Assembly (NCBI GenBank): GCA_965222895.1
Contig: CBDCVB010000002.1
Coordinates: 1,349,663 to 1,413,662, forward strand
Length of the DNA stretch: 64,000 nt
Source of the DNA: Dehalococcoidia bacterium
GTDB lineage: Bacteria > Chloroflexota > Dehalococcoidia > Lucifugimonadales > UBA3495
Direction of reading: 5' to 3'
Part shown: positions 32,988 through 50,539 of the stretch, piece by piece
How the letters are laid out: each line of letters begins with the position of its first letter
Numbering within the stretch: the stretch's first letter is position 1
Position numbers and translations under genes: made by a program
Notes under the pieces: model-generated
Database searches by the model: none
Seen by the model: the letters and a program-made list of their open reading frames with translations, nothing else
What the model was told of the DNA's origin: nothing

Positions 32988-33146
32988 GCGTACCCGCTTT
33001 AATCTGTCATTGCGAGGAGCGTCCGCTCATCCCGAGCTCGTCGAGGGAGGTGGCAATCTCGATGAGCCTGACCACGCGTAGACGAGCCGGCGTTGCTACG
33101 ACAACGGGATTGTCACGCTACGCTCGCAATGACAAAGTGGGTACGC
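32988..33146. repeat. MITE-like dispersed repeat, copy B (159 bp)
   Basis: Terminal inverted repeats GCGTACCCGCTTTAATCTGTCATTGCGAGG (left) and CTCGCAATGACAAAGTGGGTACGC (right). The interior aligns with the reverse complement of 12219-12427. Spurious ORFs through both copies read ..CHCEE(R/S)P(L/V)IPSSSR(E/D)VAIS... Confidence 0.85.
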
Positions 33147-44841: not shown

Positions 44842-44870
44842 GAGATTGCCACGCTGCGCTCGCAATGACA
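44842..44870. repeat. solo unit of the MITE-like repeat, copy C
   Basis: GAGATTGCCACGCTGCGCTCGCAATGACA matches the internal unit GAGATTGCCACG..CTCGCAATGACA of copy A, in the same orientation. Confidence 0.6.
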
Positions 44871-44992: not shown

Positions 44993-46111
44993 ATGGACTT
45001 TGGACTATTTAACACTTGGAACGCGTTATATGAGGGGGGCAAGGTTCCCTGGGACGCTGAATATAGCGGAGGGAAGCTCCTTGAGGAAGAGGCTTACGTT
45101 CAGAACTGGGCAGAGATTGACGCGGTAGAGCAGATGGGGTGGGACTACGTCTGGCTCGGGGGAGGACACTTCTCCAAGCAGGCGAGCATGGATCCCCAGG
45201 TCCTGATGCTATCCGCCGTGATAGCGGCCCGCACCGAAAGGATCAAAATTGGGTCATCCATCCACCGGCCGGTGATGAAACAGGCGGGTGAGACGGTGTC
45301 TGCATCAGCGCTTCCGCACGAGAGATATGGGTTCGACAACCTGATGATGGAGGACCCCATCCAGACCGCGGAGCAGGTCGCCATTGTTGACCAAATCAGC
45401 AAAGGCCGCTTCATTTACGGCGCCGGCGGGCGCACGCGTGGCTCCGATACGCGTCGCGAGCAGTTTTTCGAATACTTGGAAGTTATGAAGCAGCTTTGGA
45501 CCGAGGATCAGTTCTCCGGGTTCGAAGGCAAGTATTACAACTACCCGGCATTCTACGAGCCGTACCTGGCCATCCCCAAGCCCTACCAGAAGCCCTACCC
45601 GGCCATGCTGTTGCCAGTGGACAGCCAGGAAAGCTTCGTACCCATGGGAGAGCAGGGCTATCGCATCGCGGTGGGCGCGGGCAGCTCACCCCACAACCTC
45701 CGCGGAACCACGGTTCTGATTGAGGACGTGAAGCGCTACAAGCAGGCCTGGCGGGATGCCGGACACCCCGGCGAACCCACCACCGTGGTTCGCATACCGA
45801 CGCTGGTAGCCGACACGAAGGAAGAGGCCACACGCGAAGTTGACGCACTGATGAGTCTGGCCAGGCGGTATTACTCGGGCCGGGTGGGTATCGGGAGCAC
45901 CGATGCCGGCGCGGCGAGCCCAGATGCTACTGAGGAAGTAAACCTGTTTGGCACACCCGAGGAAGTGGTCGACAAGATCGAAGTCCTCCGCGAGGACTTC
46001 GGCACCGACGAGATCATGTTCGAGGTCAACTGGACTTCATCGGTGCCACGGGACGTGGTGATGAACACCATGCGAATCCTCACCGACAAGGTAATTCCGA
46101 AGTTCAAGTAA
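44993..46111 (+). CDS. LLM-class (luciferase-like) flavin/F420-dependent oxidoreductase
   Basis: MDFGLFNTWN..AEIDAVEQMGWDYVWLGGGHFS..VLMLSAVIAARTERIKIGSSIHRP..GRFIYGAGGR... Confidence 0.8.
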   Translation: MDFGLFNTWNALYEGGKVPWDAEYSGGKLLEEEAYVQNWAEIDAVEQMGWDYVWLGGGHFSKQASMDPQVLMLSAVIAARTERIKIGSSIHRPVMKQAGETVSASALPHERYGFDNLMMEDPIQTAEQVAIVDQISKGRFIYGAGGRTRGSDTRREQFFEYLEVMKQLWTEDQFSGFEGKYYNYPAFYEPYLAIPKPYQKPYPAMLLPVDSQESFVPMGEQGYRIAVGAGSSPHNLRGTTVLIEDVKRYKQAWRDAGHPGEPTTVVRIPTLVADTKEEATREVDALMSLARRYYSGRVGIGSTDAGAASPDATEEVNLFGTPEEVVDKIEVLREDFGTDEIMFEVNWTSSVPRDVVMNTMRILTDKVIPKFK

Positions 46112-46290
46112 ATCGCGGACTGAATCAATGGCTACCACCGGCGCGGTGGTGTGAATCAGGTCAGATGCCCGGGGGATTGCGCCACGCATTTCGCCGGGCG
46201 TTTGACTGATTATCGTTACTAGGCAGCGGGAGATGAGCGTCGGGGCCGTGTTTAGGATGGTCAATGTCTTGGAATCTGGAGGGTTTCTTA

Positions 46291-47261
46291 ATGGTGAATT
46301 TGGGGGCGATTGAAAAGGTTGACCTGCGGGAGGTTTGGCCGAACGAGGCGTCGGACTTTACTCCGTGGCTATGCGATAACCTGGACAAATTGGGCGCTGC
46401 CCTGGGGCTGGATTTGGAGCTGCAATCACCGGAAGCCCCGGTGGGCGCGTTTTCGCTTGACGTGCTGGCGCACGACCTGGGGAGCAACCGGCCGGTAATC
46501 ATCGAGAATCAATTGGAGGCAACCGACCACGACCATCTTGGGAAACTGCTTACCTACGCCGCCGGCTACGATGCTTATGCCGTCGTCTGGCTGACGCGGG
46601 AATTTCGGGATGAGCACCGGCAGGCGCTCGACTGGCTGAACCAGCGTACCGGAGACGACACCCAATTTTTCGGCGTAGTAGTCGAGGCCTGGAAAATCGA
46701 CGAATCTCGGCCGGCGCCACATTTCAGGCCGGTGGCTATGCCGAATGAATGGCAAAAGCGGACAGCCACTGAATCGGCAAAAAACAGTTTCGGTAATGTT
46801 TCCGAGAGGGGGGAACGCTATCGCGCGTTCTTTCAGAGTCTTATGGACACGTTGCGCGAGAAGCATCGTTTCACCAACGCCCGTAAAGGACAGCCGCAAA
46901 GTTGGTACAGTTTCAGTTCCGGGTATTCTGGGGTTGCCTACGGAGCGTCATTTTCGAGGGATGGAAAACCACTGCGTACATTGACATTGCCCGCCGAGAC
47001 ACTGCTAGCCGAGACGAAGAGTGGAATAAGCGGCTGTTCGATAGATTGGCGCAACGCACGGAATGTATCCAATCACAGTTTTCGGAAAAGTTGGTATGGG
47101 ATTACGTTGAAAACCGTTCGGTCTGCTACATCATGGTCGAACGCGATGGGCAAATTATCGATGACCAGGAGACGTTGAGCGAAATTCAGGAATGGATGGT
47201 GAAGCAGTTGCTGGCCTTCAAGCGCGTTTTTGGGCCGCATTTGGCGGAGTTGGTAAAGTAG
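46291..47261 (+). pseudogene. PD-(D/E)xK nuclease-like / DUF4268 protein gene, split by a 1-nt frameshift at an A-run
   Basis: ORF 46264..47178 (..FSLDVLAHD..VIIENQLEATDHDHLGKLLTYAAG..) switches to ORF 46902..47261 (..KTTAYIDIARRD..EEWNKRLFDRLAQRTECIQSQFSEKLVWDY..). Adding one A to the run at 46965-46968 restores ..ASFSRDGKTTAYIDI... Confidence 0.7.
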
Positions 47262-47311
47262 TGGGTGATACACTGGCAATTGTCAGCAACCATCATGCGA
47301 GGTGATTGGGT

Positions 47312-47698
47312 ATGGGAACATTCAACGTGGAATTGCGAATCGGCGCGCTTGATTTTTCGGCGTGGGAGACGGTTAGCGCACTGGCAGATACAGGTGCCAT
47401 ATATTCCATGGCGCCGGCCAGCCTGTTGCGTCGGTTGGGAGTGGAACCGGAGGAATCGGTGGAATTTGAACTCGCCGGCGGTGAGATCGTCCAATACGAA
47501 ACGGGGTATGCAGCCTTCGCCGTAATGGACAGGCTCGGCCGGGCACGGGTCATTTTTGGCCCGGATGGCGAATACCTGATGGGAGCAACTACATTGGAAG
47601 ACCTGGCGCTGATGGTCGATCCGGTGAACTATCGCCTGATTCCCACGAGACATTTGCTGAAACGGGAGTTTCCTACCAACGACTCTGAACCCGGTTAG
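47312..47698 (+). CDS. retropepsin-like (clan AA) aspartic protease, copy 1
   Basis: MGTFNVELRIG..VSALADTGAIYSMAPASLL..GEYLMGATTLEDLALMVDPVNYRLIP carries a DTG active-site motif. GAGGTGA lies 6 nt before ATG 47312. Confidence 0.7.
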   Translation: MGTFNVELRIGALDFSAWETVSALADTGAIYSMAPASLLRRLGVEPEESVEFELAGGEIVQYETGYAAFAVMDRLGRARVIFGPDGEYLMGATTLEDLALMVDPVNYRLIPTRHLLKREFPTNDSEPG

Positions 47699-47742
47699 AT
47701 TGCTGATGCGAAACATAGATTAACGATGCTTATAGATTAAAG

Positions 47743-48441
47743 ATGACTATTGAAGTTGGTGAATACGACGCAGCGCTGGCGCTGGCTTATGAAGCAGGGT
47801 GGACTGATGGGTTGCCAATCGTGCCGCCTACTGCCGAGCGGGTGCGGGCGTTTCTGGATGTGTCGGGTCGGTCGGCGCTGGAACTGGTTGGGGAGATACC
47901 GCCCCGCGGCGGGCGGGCCACGGTGGAGAAGCTGGCGACCAACGCGGTGATGGCGGGGTGTCTGTCGGAGTATTTTCCGGTAGTGATTGCCGCGATTGAG
48001 GCGCTGCTACTGCCGCGGTTCAACTTGGCATCGGTGCAATGTTCGACGCATATTGCTACACCTTTAGTGGTGGTGAACGGGCCGATTGCGCGGGAACTGG
48101 AGATGAATGGCGCCGGCAACTGTTTCGGGCAGGGCAACCGGGCTAACGCAACCATCGGGCGCGCGGTCAAGCTGGCGCTGACCAATCTGGGCGGCGCGCT
48201 GCCGGGCGACGAAGACCGCGCCACGTTCGGACACCCGGGCAAGTACACGTACTGCATTGCTGAAAACGAGGTGGAGAACCCCTGGGAGCCGTATCACGTG
48301 GAACACGGCTACCGCCCCAATGAGTCGGTGGTGACGGTGCATCCGGCGGAAGCGCCCCACAACCTGAACAACCACGGAGTAGAGCAGTTGATGGCCTTCA
48401 AGCGGGTGTTTGGCCCGCATTTAGCGGAGTTGGTGAAGTAG
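47743..48441 (+). CDS. truncated paralogue of gene X fused to a DUF4268-derived C-terminal tail (chimeric product of the duplication)
   Basis: Residues 8-213 are almost identical to ORF 48870..49898. After ..PHNLNNHG it continues VEQLMAFKRVFGPHLAELVK, which matches the end of the DUF4268 gene (..VKQLLAFKRVFGPHLAELVK). No obvious SD. Confidence 0.55.
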   Translation: MTIEVGEYDAALALAYEAGWTDGLPIVPPTAERVRAFLDVSGRSALELVGEIPPRGGRATVEKLATNAVMAGCLSEYFPVVIAAIEALLLPRFNLASVQCSTHIATPLVVVNGPIARELEMNGAGNCFGQGNRANATIGRAVKLALTNLGGALPGDEDRATFGHPGKYTYCIAENEVENPWEPYHVEHGYRPNESVVTVHPAEAPHNLNNHGVEQLMAFKRVFGPHLAELVK

Positions 48442-48492
48442 CGGGAGATGACCTCTGCAAGCGCCAACCTTCATAACCAGGAGGCAATCGGT

Positions 48493-48873
48493 ATGGGCAT
48501 TTTTAGCGTTGAGCTGACGGTGAGGAACCGCGATACCCTGGTGGGTGAGACGGTGACGGCAGTGGTTGATACCGCAGCAACGATTTCGGTTATGCCGGTC
48601 AGCTTGCTGAATCGGCTGGGCATCTCGCCGGCCAGGACACGCCGGTTTCGCCTTGCCAACGACCAGACAATAGAGTACCAAACCGGAATGGCGCTGTTTG
48701 CAACCGCCGGCAGGGACGGGGAAGCCAGCGTAGCTTTCGGGCCGGAAGACCGCTACCTGATGGGCGCAACCACCATTGAGGAACTGACATTCGTCGTTGA
48801 CCCGATACATAAGCGGCTGATTCCCGAGGATATGCTGCTGCTGCGCAGCCGGACAGAGAATGATGACAGATGA
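48493..48873 (+). CDS. retropepsin-like (clan AA) aspartic protease, copy 2 (DTA variant)
   Basis: MGIFSVELTVRN..VTAVVDTAATISVMPVSLL..DRYLMGATTIEELTFVVDPIHKRLIP. AGGAGG lies 8 nt before ATG 48493. Its stop overlaps the start of the next gene (ATGA 48870-48873). Confidence 0.7.
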   Translation: MGIFSVELTVRNRDTLVGETVTAVVDTAATISVMPVSLLNRLGISPARTRRFRLANDQTIEYQTGMALFATAGRDGEASVAFGPEDRYLMGATTIEELTFVVDPIHKRLIPEDMLLLRSRTENDDR

Positions 48874-49898
48874 CAATGGATAGCCACTACGACGCAGCGC
48901 TGGCGCTGGCTTATGAAGCAGGGTGGACTGACGGGTTGCCCATTGTGCCGCCTACTGCCGAGCGGGTGCGGGCGTTTCTGGATGTGTCGGGTAGGTCGGC
49001 GCTGGAACTGGTTGGGGAAATACCGCCCCGCGGCGGACGGGCCACGGTGGAGAAGCTGGCGACCAACGCAGTGATGGCGGGGTGTCTGCCGGAGTATTTC
49101 CCGGTGGTGATTGCCGCGATTGAGGCGCTGCTGCTGCCCCGGTTCAACCTGGCATCGGTGCAATGTTCGACTCACATTGCTACGCCGCTAGTGGTGGTCA
49201 ATGGGCCGATTGCGCGGGAACTGGAGATGAATGGCGAAGGCAACTGTTTCGGGCAGGGCAACCGGGCCAACGCAACCATCGGGCGGGCGGTCAAGCTGGC
49301 GCTGACCAATTTGGGCGGCGCGCTGCCGGGCGACGAAGACCGCGCTACGTTCGGACACCCGGGCAAGTACACGTACTGCATTGCTGAGAACGAGGTGGAG
49401 AACCCCTGGGAGCCGTATCACGTGGAACACGGCTACGGTCCCGATGAGTCGGTGGTGACGGTGCATCCGGCGGAAGCGCCCCACAACCTGAACAACCACG
49501 GAGCCGACAATCCCAGGGACCTGCTGACCACATTTGCGATGTCGATGGCGATACCAGGCTGCAACAACATCCACGTGATGGGCGACGTGCTGCTGGTGCT
49601 GGGGCCGGAGCACGCTGACATCATTGCCAGCGCCGGCTGGAGCAAGAATGACGTGCGGTCGTACCTGTACGAACTGGCGCGCCAGCCTCTATCCGTCCTG
49701 AAACTGGGCGGCATCCACGGGCGTCATGCCCACCGCAACACGCTGTGGCCGCGCTGGATCGACCGCAACGACGATGACGCCATGGTTCCGGTGGTGCGCC
49801 GTGCGGAGGATATTCACATTATGGTTGCCGGTGGGCCGGGCCGGCATTCGTTGTACATACCGGGCTGGGGTTCGCGGATTACGTCGGCTGCGGTTTAA
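48870..49898 (+). CDS. conserved-looking hypothetical protein X (342 aa), family not recognised
   Basis: ..AGWTDGLPIVPPTAERVRAFLD..EKLATNAVMAGCLPEYFPVVIAAIEALL..VQCSTHIATPLVVVNGPIARELEMNGEGNCFGQGNRANATIGRAVKLALTNLGG... It is translationally coupled to protease copy 2. Confidence 0.7.
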   Translation: MTMDSHYDAALALAYEAGWTDGLPIVPPTAERVRAFLDVSGRSALELVGEIPPRGGRATVEKLATNAVMAGCLPEYFPVVIAAIEALLLPRFNLASVQCSTHIATPLVVVNGPIARELEMNGEGNCFGQGNRANATIGRAVKLALTNLGGALPGDEDRATFGHPGKYTYCIAENEVENPWEPYHVEHGYGPDESVVTVHPAEAPHNLNNHGADNPRDLLTTFAMSMAIPGCNNIHVMGDVLLVLGPEHADIIASAGWSKNDVRSYLYELARQPLSVLKLGGIHGRHAHRNTLWPRWIDRNDDDAMVPVVRRAEDIHIMVAGGPGRHSLYIPGWGSRITSAAV

Positions 49899-49960
49899 TT
49901 TGCCCGGTTTGATTAACATGGATGAACAGGATGAAAAGGATACTGTTGGGAGGAGATTGG

Positions 49961-50539
49961 ATGATGAGCGATAGCAGAGTTGATTTGCAGGCTCGCATCG
50001 CCGCGTTGGGATTGCTGGATCCCACCGACCGGCAGGAAGCGCCGAAGCGACGCGCGGCGACACCGCTGGAGACATTGGAAGGACGAACCGGCGGGTTCCT
50101 GGACAATCACAAAGGCAATGCCGACGTAATACTGGAAGCCATTCGCCGGGAGTTGTCCGCCGGGTACGGCATGACCGATTCGGTGGTGCTGGCCAAGTGG
50201 GTGTTTTCGGCCCCGGCGGCGCCGGAGATTGTCGACGAACTGGCGCAGTGCGATTTCGTGGTTACGGCGGTGGGGGATTGAGGGAGCTGTGTGGCGCGCA
50301 GTTTGCGCGATGCGGTGGAACTGGAAGACCGGGGTGTGCGGACGGTGGTAGTGCATACCGAGGCATTCTGCTCGGCAGCCGAGCAGCACATCGTATCGTT
50401 GGGCCGACCCGATTACGAAGGTTCGGTGTACATTAAACACCCGGTGGCGGCGCTGGACGAGGCAGCAATCAACCAACGCGTCGAACCCGTGGTGGGTGAC
50501 ATCGTGTCCGCGCTGTTGGGGCACCGGCGGGAGGATTGA
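49961..50539 (+). CDS. probable selenoprotein with a U-G-S-C motif (in-frame UGA at 50279-50281)
   Basis: ORFs 49922..50281 and 50291..50539 share one frame. Read through, the sequence is ..VVTAVGD-U-GSCVARSLRDAVELEDRGVRTVVVHTEAF... GGGAGGAG lies 5 nt before ATG 49961, and there is no SD before 50291. Confidence 0.6.
50295..50309 (+). other. candidate SECIS apical hairpin
   Basis: CGCGCA-GUU-UGCGCG is a perfect 6-bp stem starting 14 nt after the UGA. Confidence 0.3.

What the first reader, a model, noticed from the sequence alone, without database searches (positions are those of the whole stretch)
46291..50539. Unassigned cassette: DUF4268 nuclease-like gene, retropepsin-like protease(s), unknown protein X and a U-G-S-C selenoprotein
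- **Location.** Seven plus-strand reading frames sit between a housekeeping LLM oxidoreductase (ends 46111) and convergent tgt (ends 50564). I cannot place them in any described pathway.
- **Gene order.** The order is: PD-(D/E)xK/DUF4268 gene (frameshifted), clan-AA aspartic protease 1 (DTG), truncated X1, aspartic protease 2 (DTA), full-length X2 (342 aa), then, after a 62-nt gap, a 192-aa protein with an in-frame UGA in D-U-G-S-C.
- **Coupling.** The stop of protease 2 overlaps the X2 start (ATGA at 48870-48873), which implies translational coupling.
- **Why it is unusual.** Free-standing retropepsin-like proteases have almost no assigned function in bacteria. X has strongly patterned motifs (GLPIVPPT, NAVMAGC, VQCSTHIATP, NCFGQGNRANATIGRA) that I do not recognise.
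- **Working idea (inference only).** X plus the Sec/Cys protein form a redox enzyme pair, and the protease matures or regulates X.
Basis: partly seen in the sequence, partly recalled or inferred. Interest (0 to 1): 0.75.

Follow-up and report, generated by a model that had tools for sequence, protein, structure and literature searches.

The report
Orphan selenoprotein pair beside variable islet
The region is two separate things: a widespread two-gene enzyme of unknown substrate (the UGSC selenoprotein and an unnamed partner, X), which probably works as a redox pair, and next to it a strain-variable patch of small protease genes and a broken candidate phage-defence gene that has nothing to do with that enzyme.

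Summary
The cassette is composite.

- **Conserved core (48870-50539).** This is X plus a UGSC-family selenoprotein (Pfam PF24696).
  - A UGSC gene lay directly beside X in all 81 loci with enough flank.
  - The Sec position is TGA in 79 of 86 adjacent genes. A covarying SECIS-like hairpin follows the TGA and decays in the Cys-type genes.
  - X and UGSC are often fused, in both orders. Rarer fusions join X to thioredoxin-reductase-like, ferredoxin:thioredoxin-reductase-beta or peroxiredoxin-like domains.
  - A few operons add thioredoxin or thioredoxin reductase genes.
  - X has no Pfam, NCBIfam or PDB relative. Its family has 7268 clusters.
  - The redox-pair idea is therefore supported.
- **Variable islet (46216-48868).** The protease idea is not supported.
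  - Proteases and DUF4268 occur only in the closest Dehalococcoidia relatives, in varying numbers.
  - 79 of 80 protease-homologue loci elsewhere lack X, UGSC and DUF4268.
  - DUF4268 matches the PADLOC defence candidate PDC-S11 and carries a 1-nt deletion.
  - "Truncated X1" is a duplication scar fused to a copy of the DUF4268 3' end.

UGSC is a catalogued orphan family. The substrate remains unknown.

The parts
46291..47261 (+). DUF4268 / PD-(D/E)xK-like gene, a member of the PADLOC defence-candidate family PDC-S11. It is disrupted by a 1-nt deletion between 46964 and 46965 and carries a 15-nt in-frame insertion relative to L004.
   Evidence: Pfam PF14088. PADLOC PDC-S11 at E 1.3e-93; the intact L004 homologue scores 5.3e-111. 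Frameshift mapped.
47312..47698 (+). Stand-alone retropepsin-like (clan AA) aspartic protease 1, catalytic motif D-T-G-A.
   Evidence: PF13650 at 24.9 bits (cut-off 24.3). TIGR03698 at 24.7 bits, below its cut-off of 57.35. Alignment.
47743..48441 (+). Chimeric ORF X1. X residues 1-213 (47743-48378) are fused to a copy of the DUF4268 3' end (48379-48441). It is a duplication scar that lacks the C-terminal third of X.
   Evidence: There are 5 amino-acid differences from X2 over 207 aligned residues.
47203..47269 (+). Direct repeat copy 1: the genuine 3' end of DUF4268. Copy 2 is at 48383-48449 (88% identical).
   Evidence: (family D2).
47764..48378 (+). Direct repeat copy 1: the head of X. Copy 2 is at 48888-49502 (about 95% identical). 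The protease segments between the repeats are only about 50-60% identical.
   Evidence: (family D1).
48493..48873 (+). Retropepsin-like protease 2, with the atypical motif D-T-A-A. Its stop overlaps the X2 start (ATGA). An upstream ATG at 48448 is an alternative start.
   Evidence: PF13650 at 30.6 bits and PF13975 at 28.9 bits. 48% identical to protease 1. Alignment.
48870..49898 (+). X2, the full-length partner subunit of the UGSC selenoprotein (342 aa). It belongs to an unmodelled family. E173 is invariant (150/150), R139 is 149/150, and C72 (93%) and C170 (90%) are conserved.
   Evidence: No Pfam, NCBIfam or PDB hit. 7268 clusters at E<=1e-3. AF2 pLDDT 89.4. Residue conservation.
49961..50539 (+). 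UGSC-family selenoprotein (192 aa), with Sec encoded by UGA at 50279-50281 in the motif D-U-G-S-C.
   Evidence: PF24696 at 149.7 bits. NF041046 at 114.3 bits, below its cut-off of 125. TGA at this position in 79 of 86 adjacent homologues.
50292..50312 (+). SECIS-like hairpin starting 11 nt after the UGA. The core stem is CGCGC (50295-50299) paired with GCGCG (50305-50309), with loop AGUUU.
   Evidence: Covariation: 87.8% of cells paired, 5 of 8 pairs with compensatory changes, 0 of 500 shuffles as good. The hairpin decays in the Cys-type genes.
46216..48868 (.). Strain-variable islet. A 92-95% identical relative (L007) has about 630 nt with one frameshifted protease gene in place of this whole segment.
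   Evidence: The content differs again in L004, L008 and L087.

Best explanation
The locus is a composite of two unrelated parts.

**(1) 48870-50539: a conserved two-gene module.**
- It encodes a two-subunit Sec/Cys-dependent oxidoreductase.
- The UGSC subunit is a flavodoxin-like alpha/beta domain. It carries the redox centre U-G-S-C at the start of a helix.
- UGA is decoded as Sec through the hairpin at 50292-50312.
- X is a novel-fold subunit. I infer that it holds the substrate site, because its conserved residues include Arg139, Asn134 and Glu173 (suggestive of carboxylate binding) together with Cys72 and Cys170.
- Inferred cycle: the selenolate attacks a substrate bound at the X/UGSC interface. 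A selenenyl-sulfide forms with the resolving Cys of UGSC or with a Cys of X. A thioredoxin-type donor (Trx/TrxR, FTR-like or Prx-like module) then re-reduces it.
- The substrate is unknown. The neighbours point loosely to carboxylic acids or their CoA esters.

**(2) 46216-48868: a lineage-specific, recombination-prone accessory islet inserted between the LLM gene and X.**
- It holds a frameshifted PDC-S11/DUF4268 candidate defence nuclease and diverged copies of a stand-alone retropepsin-like gene.
- It also holds a duplication scar (X head fused to the DUF4268 tail).
- The protease genes sit just upstream of X and may be co-transcribed with it, as a result of where the islet lies. They are not part of the X-UGSC function.

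**Shown:** the obligate pairing, the fusions, the Sec recoding signal, and the variability and independence of the islet.
**Inferred:** the physical complex, the catalytic cycle, the electron donor in this organism, and the substrate class.
For: **Pairing**
- A UGSC homologue lies directly beside X in all 81 of 86 loci that have flank, across at least 10 phyla.
- Starting from UGSC in Nesterenkonia and Pimelobacter, the neighbouring gene is X (38-42% identical).

**Fusions**
- Of 72 X-family representatives of at least 400 aa, 43 contain UGSC (N- or C-terminal), 2 FeThRed_B, 2 Redoxin/AhpC-TSA and 1 TrxR-like Pyr_redox_2.
- The natural fusion P0204 models at pLDDT 92.7 and pTM 0.93 despite a low-confidence linker.

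**Electron donor**
- Trx and TrxR lie beside UGSC-X in Pimelobacter.
- TrxR-like genes lie within about 3 kb downstream of the pair in Candidimonas L051, Achromobacter L078 and L056, and immediately downstream of X in L073.

**Selenocysteine**
- The codon is TGA in 79 and TGC in 7 genes.
- The hairpin covaries. On average 6.8 of 8 pairs form in the TGA genes and 4.4 of 8 in the TGC genes, where the AGU loop is also lost.

**X itself**
- It has no family or PDB match.
- C72 is kept in 139/150, C170 in 135/150, E173 in 150/150 and R139 in 149/150 representatives.

**Islet**
- Proteases and DUF4268 occur only in L004, L007 and L008 among 86 X loci.
- L007 replaces 46216-48868 with about 630 nt.
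- L004 has four proteases and its own X-head/DUF4268-tail relic.
- 79 of 80 protease-homologue loci lack X, UGSC and DUF4268, and their neighbours are heterogeneous.
- DUF4268 matches PDC-S11.
- Genes in the islet are decaying: frameshifts in the window's DUF4268 and in the L007 protease.
Against: - There is no biochemical evidence, and the substrate is unknown.
- I could not read model coordinates, so the distance between Sec and Cys72/Cys170 is untested.
- Trx/TrxR genes or fusions accompany only a minority of pairs. None lies in this window.
- No Sec-insertion genes or tRNA-Sec are in the 64 kb, so Sec decoding in this organism rests on comparative evidence.
- The window UGSC scores below the NCBIfam equivalog cut-off (114.3 against 125).
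- In the three lineage members that carry a protease next to X (window, L004, L007), the protease gene abuts X closely: an ATGA overlap here and 9 nt in L004. A lineage-specific functional link cannot be excluded.
- PDC-S11 is only a candidate defence family.
Confidence: 0.7

Rival explanations
1. One reading: all seven frames form one functional cassette, in which the retropepsin-like protease matures or regulates X.
For: - The protease genes are co-directional with X and lie immediately upstream of it.
- The stop of protease 2 overlaps the X2 start.
- A protease gene also abuts X in L004 and L007.
Against: - There is no protease near X in the 83 X loci outside L004, L007 and L008.
- 79 of 80 protease-homologue loci lack X and UGSC.
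- Copy number ranges from 0 to 4 among close relatives: L008 has none, and the L007 copy is frameshifted.
- Protease 2 has DTA in place of the catalytic DTG.
Confidence: 0.06
2. X-UGSC is a two-subunit iron-sulfur hydro-lyase of the class I fumarate hydratase / tartrate dehydratase type, with X as the alpha subunit and UGSC as the beta subunit.
For: - The best Foldseek hit for X is the alpha subunit of the M. jannaschii two-subunit fumarate hydratase (E 1.3e-4, probability 0.95).
- Leishmania class I fumarases follow.
- Both systems consist of two adjacent genes.
Against: - TM-scores are only 0.28-0.32 with an rmsd of about 15 A.
- Only two Cys are conserved in X (C72, C170). C99 is kept in 18/150 and C126 in 46/150, so I find no third conserved Cys for the three-Cys cluster site I expect in class I fumarases.
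- The UGSC domain matches flavodoxin-like folds, and no fumarase chain is among the 50 best PDB matches.
- There is no Pfam Fumerase hit even at E<=10.
Confidence: 0.04
3. X-UGSC is a real obligate pair, but its chemistry is not net redox. It could be an isomerase, racemase, lyase or transferase that uses Sec/Cys as nucleophile or general base. In that case the thioredoxin-type partners only keep the selenol reduced.
For: - Only a minority of loci carry Trx/TrxR or redox-domain fusions.
- One subfamily lacks the resolving Cys (U-G-S-S).
- Frequent neighbours are family III CoA-transferases, acyl-CoA dehydrogenases and MmgE/PrpD, which fits acid or CoA-ester catabolism.
Against: - Apart from X-X tandem forms, every domain identified fused to X other than UGSC is a thiol-redox module.
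- Sec is strongly preferred over Cys (79:7).
- The UxxC spacing is conserved; both it and the Sec preference are, to my knowledge, usual in redox catalysis.
Confidence: 0.18
4. The tandem repeat (X1, the second DUF4268 tail and protease 2) is an assembly artefact that joins two strain haplotypes.
For: - The source is probably a metagenome-assembled genome; the nearest records are MAGs.
- The two X heads differ by 5%, mostly at synonymous sites, as alleles from two strains would.
- The tail copy resembles the L004 allele more than the window's own tail.
Against: - The junction at 48378/48379 joins non-homologous sequences, which an overlap assembler would not create.
- An independently assembled relative (L004) carries an analogous X-head/DUF4268-tail relic between two protease genes.
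Confidence: 0.08
5. The in-frame TGA is a true stop or a sequencing error, so the U-G-S-C protein is a pseudogene or two separate small genes.
For: - Gene callers split it into pieces of 105 and 80 aa in all public records seen.
- No Sec machinery is visible in the window.
Against: - The TGA sits at exactly this codon in 79 of 86 homologues, with Cys in the remainder.
- The frame and the Pfam domain continue across it.
- A covarying hairpin follows it and is lost in the Cys forms.
- The family is a published selenoprotein family (PMC2398784).
Confidence: 0.02

Closest known systems
UGSC family (seleno)protein (Pfam PF24696, NCBIfam NF041046); the 'UGSC-containing protein' of Zhang and Gladyshev (PMC2398784, PMC1976440)
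   Same: - The 49961-50539 product matches the Pfam model end to end (149.7 bits).
- It has the U-G-S-C motif, an in-frame UGA and a SECIS-like hairpin.
- As in the GOS survey (255 Sec against 21 Cys), Sec forms dominate here too (79:7).
   Different: - It scores below the NCBIfam equivalog cut-off (114.3 against 125).
- The literature calls the family thioredoxin-fold-like and of unknown function. The fusion model instead matches flavodoxin-like alpha/beta domains.
- The 2008 paper noted only a 'UGSC/Unknown_1' fusion in a few aquatic organisms. I could not confirm that Unknown_1 is X, because that figure is held only as an image.
- Here X is the partner in every informative locus.
Glycine / sarcosine / betaine reductase and D-proline reductase (Grd/Prd) selenoenzyme complexes
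   Same: - From general knowledge, these systems place a Sec next to a Cys on one subunit, work with a separate substrate-binding subunit, and regenerate the Se-S intermediate through thioredoxin and thioredoxin reductase, whose genes often lie in the operon.
- Some X-UGSC loci carry Trx and TrxR genes, and some X proteins are fused to TrxR-like domains.
   Different: - Neither X nor UGSC hits Pfam GRDB, Gly_reductase or GRDA, even at E<=10.
- The hosts are mostly aerobic or aquatic lineages rather than Stickland fermenters.
- No pyruvoyl-proenzyme signature was tested or seen.
- This is an analogy of mechanism, not membership.
Two-subunit class I fumarate hydratase (PDB 7xky) and related Fe-S hydro-lyases
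   Same: It gives the best, but weak, structural match to X, and it is also built from two adjacent genes.
   Different: - TM-scores are about 0.3.
- X has no conserved three-Cys cluster site.
- The UGSC domain does not resemble the beta subunit.
PDC-S11 (PADLOC phage-defence candidate, single-gene) / DUF4268 proteins
   Same: The 46291-47261 gene matches PDC-S11 models at E 1.3e-93, and its intact L004 orthologue at 5.3e-111.
   Different: - The window copy is frameshifted.
- PDC-S11 is a candidate family, not a demonstrated defence system.
Stand-alone bacterial and archaeal retropepsin-like proteases (PF13650 Asp_protease_2; TIGR03698 clan_AA_DTGF)
   Same: - The proteins are about 125 aa with a D-T/S-G-A motif and a C-terminal G-A-T-T-L-E motif.
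- They hit Pfam just above threshold.
   Different: - Both score far below the TIGR03698 cut-off.
- Protease 2 has DTA.
- The genes occur as a diverging local array between repeats, which was not seen in the 79 homologue loci outside the window's lineage (L087 belongs to it).

Membership tests
UGSC family (seleno)protein | Full-length match to the family HMM above the curated threshold | tested here: met
   Pfam PF24696 at 149.7 bits (cut-off 25), covering profile positions 2-171 of 172. The stricter NCBIfam equivalog NF041046 gives 114.3 bits against a cut-off of 125, so that threshold is not reached.
UGSC family (seleno)protein | U/C-G-S-C motif with Sec encoded by an in-frame UGA | tested here: met
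   The motif V-G-D-U-G-S-C has TGA at 50279-50281. The same codon is TGA in 79 and TGC in 7 homologues.
UGSC family (seleno)protein | Bacterial SECIS hairpin just downstream of the UGA | tested here: met
   An 8-bp hairpin starts 11 nt after the UGA. 87.8% of cells pair, 5 pairs show compensatory changes, and 0 of 500 shuffles do as well. Slid controls reach at most 53%. The hairpin is degraded in Cys-type genes. Rfam has no matching model.
UGSC family (seleno)protein | Sec-insertion machinery (selA, selB, selD, tRNA-Sec) in the genome | not testable with these tools
   No tRNA lies in the 64 kb. The rest of the genome is not available.
Thioredoxin-fold oxidoreductase (the literature's prediction for UGSC) | Thioredoxin fold with the redox motif at the N-terminus of helix 1 | tested here: not met
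   In the fusion model the UGSC domain is beta-alpha repeated, with the motif after the strand at residues 90-96. The Foldseek hits are flavodoxin-like, lumazine synthase, GH3 C-domain, MccF and GATase.
Retropepsin-like clan AA aspartic protease | HMM match above threshold | tested here: met
   PF13650 gives 24.9 and 30.6 bits against a cut-off of 24.3, which is marginal. TIGR03698 gives 24.7 and 28.4 bits against 57.35, which is not reached.
Retropepsin-like clan AA aspartic protease | Catalytic D-T/S-G-A motif | tested here: inconclusive
   Protease 1 has DTGA. Protease 2 has DTAA, so the Gly is lost. The L004 paralogues have DTGA, DTGS or DSGS.
PDC-S11 / DUF4268 candidate defence nuclease | Full-length match to PDC-S11 models and an intact reading frame | tested here: not met
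   The match is strong (E 1.3e-93 for the 5' frame and 4.8e-13 for the 3' frame). The frame is broken by a 1-nt deletion at 46964/46965, which could be a sequencing error.
Class I (Fe-S) fumarate hydratase-type hydro-lyase | Three conserved Cys ligands for a 4Fe-4S cluster, and the Fumerase/Fumerase_C domains | tested here: not met
   Only C72 and C170 are conserved. There is no Pfam hit at E<=10. Fold similarity is weak, with TM about 0.3.
Grd/Prd-type Stickland selenoreductases | GRDB, GRDA or Gly_reductase domains and a pyruvoyl proenzyme subunit | tested here: not met
   No such Pfam hits appear for X, UGSC or the fusion at E<=10. Pyruvoyl formation cannot be tested here.
Grd/Prd-type Stickland selenoreductases | Dedicated thioredoxin / thioredoxin reductase supplying electrons | tested here: inconclusive
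   This is present in some loci and fusions but not in the window or in most loci.

The most novel reading that the evidence does not exclude
X-UGSC is a previously uncharacterised class of two-subunit selenoenzyme. A flavodoxin-like Sec subunit pairs with a novel-fold substrate subunit, and thioredoxin-type donors recharge the pair. It would catalyse a reductive step in the catabolism of small organic acids or their CoA esters, in abundant aquatic and soil bacteria. This would finally assign a function to one of the most frequent prokaryotic selenoprotein families in ocean and freshwater metagenomes.
Probability: 0.45. Interest if true: 0.8.

Novelty: new variant of a known kind. Interest (0 to 1): 0.55.

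Why it matters
The UGSC-containing protein has ranked among the most abundant prokaryotic selenoproteins in aquatic metagenomes since 2007-2008. A 2026 review (PMC13188914) groups it with selenoproteins whose biological functions remain largely uncharacterised.

This work makes the problem experimentally approachable in four ways:
- UGSC always travels with one specific partner, X, which has no family model although its family has 7268 clusters.
- The two are often fused.
- The only other fused domains identified are thiol-redox modules.
- Cys-type versions exist in cultivable Achromobacter, Candidimonas, Pimelobacter, Nesterenkonia and Mycobacterium gordonae.

There are also two annotation lessons. 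X deserves a family model and a name. Public gene calls split UGSC genes at the Sec codon. The protease/DUF4268 part is an ordinary variable islet, and it shows how adjacency within one genome can mislead.

Tried and rejected
- **Sequence searches for X.** Pfam and NCBIfam at E<=0.01, then Pfam at E<=10, PDB with phmmer and with a profile, PADLOC: nothing.
- **Profile search of UGSC against PDB.** Only chance-level hits, to the WHEP domain of His-tRNA synthetase.
- **Structure of the window's own UGSC with U changed to C.** I used a natural Cys-type fusion instead.
- **Fe-S hydro-lyase idea from the Foldseek hit.** Rejected on Cys conservation and low TM.
- **Single-sequence fold of the region after the UGA.** Not significant (z -0.56). 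Only the comparative analysis revealed the SECIS.
- **Rfam.** No family in the region or in the window.
- **Promoter and terminator scans.** At chance level.
- **Exact-sequence lookup of X2 in public assemblies.** Not on record.
- **An AIRS-domain gene upstream of X in L001, L005 and L006, considered as a possible SelD.** It has no homologue in the window, so I did not pursue it.
- **LLM (luciferase-like) genes near X-UGSC.** They recur in Dehalococcoidia loci. They are only 21-30% identical to the window's LLM, and several loci carry more than one copy, so I do not count this as functional linkage.
- **Neighbour survey of protease homologues.** No conserved partner; RraA-like in 13 of 127 and the rest heterogeneous.
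- **Search for a compensating Cys in X in the U-G-S-S subfamily.** Suggestive only; position 122 in 4 of 6.

Full report
**1. What is in the sequence**

- a DUF4268 gene in two frames (46291-47261);
- protease 1 (47312-47698, motif DTGA);
- X1 (47743-48441);
- protease 2 (48493-48873, motif DTAA), whose stop overlaps the X2 start in ATGA;
- X2 (48870-49898, 342 aa);
- after 62 nt, a 192-codon frame (49961-50539) with TGA at 50279-50281 inside V-G-D-U-G-S-C.

Family scans confirm DUF4268, weak clan-AA protease matches and a full-length match of the last protein to the UGSC family. The UGSC scores are Pfam PF24696 149.7 bits and NCBIfam NF041046 114.3 bits, the latter below its cut-off of 125. 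X has no hit in Pfam, NCBIfam, PADLOC or PDB.

**2.

- X1 is X residues 1-213 joined at 48378/48379 to a second copy of the last about 20 codons of DUF4268 (...AFKRVFGPHLAELVK*).
- The segment [DUF4268 tail - protease - X head] is therefore present twice in tandem.
- The tails are 88% identical and the X heads about 95% identical, with 5 amino-acid differences in 207 residues. The enclosed protease genes are only 48% identical at protein level.
- The junction joins non-homologous sequence with at most 1-3 nt of microhomology.
- The tail copy looks more like the allele of relative L004 than like the window's own tail.
- The DUF4268 frameshift is a single missing base at 46964/46965 relative to the intact L004 orthologue.

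**3. X and UGSC are an obligate pair**

- X has a very large family. At least 8000 candidate 90%-identity clusters were scored. An exhaustive profile search found 7268 clusters at 50% identity with E<=1e-3. All named members are called 'hypothetical'.
- I examined 86 loci, 80 of them from one genome per species. A UGSC homologue lies directly beside X, on the same strand, in every locus with enough flank. It is downstream in most and upstream in about 25. The five exceptions all have X at a contig edge.
- The hosts span Dehalococcoidia and other Chloroflexota, Beta- and Alphaproteobacteria, Acidobacteriota, Binatia, Rokubacteria/Methylomirabilota, Nitrospinota, Actinomycetota, Eremiobacterota and Entotheonella.
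- Starting from UGSC proteins of Nesterenkonia flava and Pimelobacter simplex, the overlapping downstream gene is again X (38-42% identical).
- Some loci hold two or three X-UGSC pairs (L050, L052, L054, L059, L079).

**4. Rosetta-stone fusions point to redox chemistry**

- Among the 150 best 50%-cluster representatives, 72 are at least 400 aa long. Of these, 43 contain a UGSC domain, either N- or C-terminal to X. Many are cut by gene callers at the Sec codon.
- Two contain the catalytic beta chain of ferredoxin:thioredoxin reductase, two a Redoxin/AhpC-TSA domain, and one a thioredoxin-reductase-like flavoprotein domain with a C-A-V-C motif.
- Candidimonas nitroreducens has X, UGSC(Cys), CoA-transferase III and a TrxR-like gene in series.
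- Pimelobacter has TrxR and Trx next to UGSC-X.
- TrxR-like genes also lie near the pair in L056, L073 and L078.
- Other neighbours are diverse. CoA-transferase III, TctC, LysR, acyl-CoA dehydrogenases, an AMP-binding ligase and luciferase-like oxidoreductases recur. This hints at organic-acid or CoA-ester metabolism but does not fix a substrate.

**5. Structures**

- X2 models confidently (pLDDT 89.4, pTM 0.90) but has no convincing PDB neighbour.
- Its best hit is the alpha subunit of a two-subunit class I fumarate hydratase (E 1.3e-4, but TM about 0.3). Weak hits to Toblerone-fold hydrolases, CyuA and PrpD follow.
- Across 150 diverse members, E173 is kept in 150/150, R139 in 149/150, N134 in 145/150, C72 in 139/150 and C170 in 135/150. 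C99 (18/150) and C126 (46/150) are not conserved, so a three-Cys Fe-S site is unlikely.
- A natural Cys-type UGSC-X fusion (P0204, 561 aa) models at pLDDT 92.7 and pTM 0.93 despite a low-confidence linker. I infer a defined domain interface from this.
- In that model the UGSC domain is a beta-alpha-repeat sandwich. Its Foldseek neighbours are flavodoxin-like folds, not thioredoxins.
- The U/CxxC motif follows a beta strand and opens a helix.
- I could not access the coordinates, so the distance from the motif to the X cysteines is untested.

**6. Selenocysteine decoding**

- The codon aligned with U is TGA in 79 and TGC in 7 adjacent homologues. The Cys forms are in Alcaligenaceae, Mycobacterium and another actinomycete.
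- An 8-bp hairpin with an A-G-U-N-U loop begins 11 nt after the UGA. In the window it spans 50292-50312.
- On 42 distinct sequences, 87.8% of cells pair and 5 of 8 pairs show double changes (for example C-G to G-C in 14 sequences). No shuffle of 500 reaches the observed values for percent paired, compensatory cells or the covariation score. Slid registers give at most 53% pairing.
- In the seven Cys-type genes the hairpin is degraded (mean 4.4 of 8 pairs against 6.8) and the AGU loop is lost. The structure therefore tracks the UGA rather than the protein sequence.
- Rfam has no model for it.
- No tRNA or Sec machinery lies in the window.

**7. The proteases and DUF4268 form a separate, variable islet**

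- Among the 86 X loci, they occur only in the three closest relatives.
  - L004 (X 90% identical, same tgt neighbour) has protease, protease, DUF4268, protease, an X-head/DUF4268-tail relic, protease, X, UGSC.
  - L007 (X 97% identical; flanks 92-95% identical at DNA level) has a single frameshifted protease in about 630 nt where the window has 46216-48868.
  - L008 has only DUF4268 next to X.
- A metagenome scan for protease homologues returned 80 loci. Only one (L087, same lineage) has DUF4268, X or UGSC within 4 kb.
- The neighbours of the other 79 are heterogeneous, mostly housekeeping-type genes, with no conserved partner.
- DUF4268 matches the PADLOC phage-defence candidate PDC-S11 (E 1.3e-93; the intact L004 copy 5.3e-111).
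- Variable copy number, frameshifts and repeated illegitimate junctions indicate a recombination-prone accessory islet.
- The tight spacing and the ATGA overlap with X2 suggest co-transcription. They are not evidence of a shared function.

**8. Comparison with what is known**

- The 'UGSC-containing protein' is a published selenoprotein family of unknown function. It is among the most abundant in GOS samples (255 Sec against 21 Cys sequences) and is enriched in non-marine waters.
- It was predicted to be thioredoxin-fold-like and was seen fused to a domain called 'Unknown_1' (PMC2398784; also PMC1976440, PMC9312934). It is still listed without a function in 2026 (PMC13188914).
- I found no paper that describes X as its constant partner, or the TrxR, FTR or Prx fusions.
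- The closest working analogy is the glycine / D-proline reductase type of selenoenzyme. From general knowledge, those have a Sec subunit, a substrate subunit and a dedicated Trx/TrxR. No sequence membership was found.

**9. Verdict**

- The redox-pair idea is supported, and the protease link is not.
- The core is a catalogued but functionally orphan selenoprotein together with an unmodelled obligate partner.
- The instance in this window is an ordinary member of that pair. The general picture it led to makes an old open question directly testable.

Noticed in passing
window 44844-44869 and 33108-33133; L004 12829-12854; L007 3980-4005: A 26-nt intergenic palindromic element (GATTGCCACGCTGCGCTCGCAATGAC; arms ATTGC/GCAAT) occurs twice in the window against 0 expected by chance. 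It is 100% conserved at an unrelated position in L004, whose genome is otherwise about 75% identical. It looks like a small REP-like repeat.
   Followed up: partly
L007 5613-5964: The single protease gene upstream of X in the 97%-identical relative is split over two frames. This is either a frameshift or a sequencing error, and it fits decay of the islet genes.
   Followed up: no
L050, L052, L054, L059, L079: Two or three paralogous X-UGSC pairs lie within 13 kb in some genomes, which suggests a diversified enzyme family with several substrates.
   Followed up: no
L028, L034, L036, L042, L050, L075, L083; P0191: One subfamily of the selenoprotein has U-G-S-S or U-G-T-S (H-U-G-S-S in six of the seven loci, D-U-G-T-S in L083) and so lacks the resolving Cys. 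The partner X keeps C170 in all seven loci and C72 in six of them, and often gains a Cys at position 122.
   Followed up: partly
P0187, P0194, P0207, P0220, P0256, P0275 (about 710-740 aa): Some proteins show two or three matched stretches to the X profile, which suggests two tandem X domains. The two I scanned (P0187, P0194) have no UGSC domain in the same chain.
   Followed up: no
L010-L024, L033 (Dehalococcoidia loci); window 44993-46111: Luciferase-like (LLM) oxidoreductase paralogues, often several, lie within 0.06-3.5 kb of X-UGSC in about 15 Dehalococcoidia loci. Without the islet, the window's LLM would be the direct upstream neighbour of X. This may only reflect locally repeated LLM genes (several loci carry more than one copy).
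   Followed up: partly
L001-L006 and hits P0121-P0170: In every public record inspected, the gene caller splits the UGSC selenoprotein gene at the UGA into pieces of about 105 and 80 aa, or merges the distal piece into X in fusion genes. This is a systematic misannotation.
   Followed up: yes
window 46987-47001: The window's DUF4268 gene has a 15-nt in-frame insertion (TGCCCGCCGAGACAC) relative to L004, just downstream of the frameshift.
   Followed up: no
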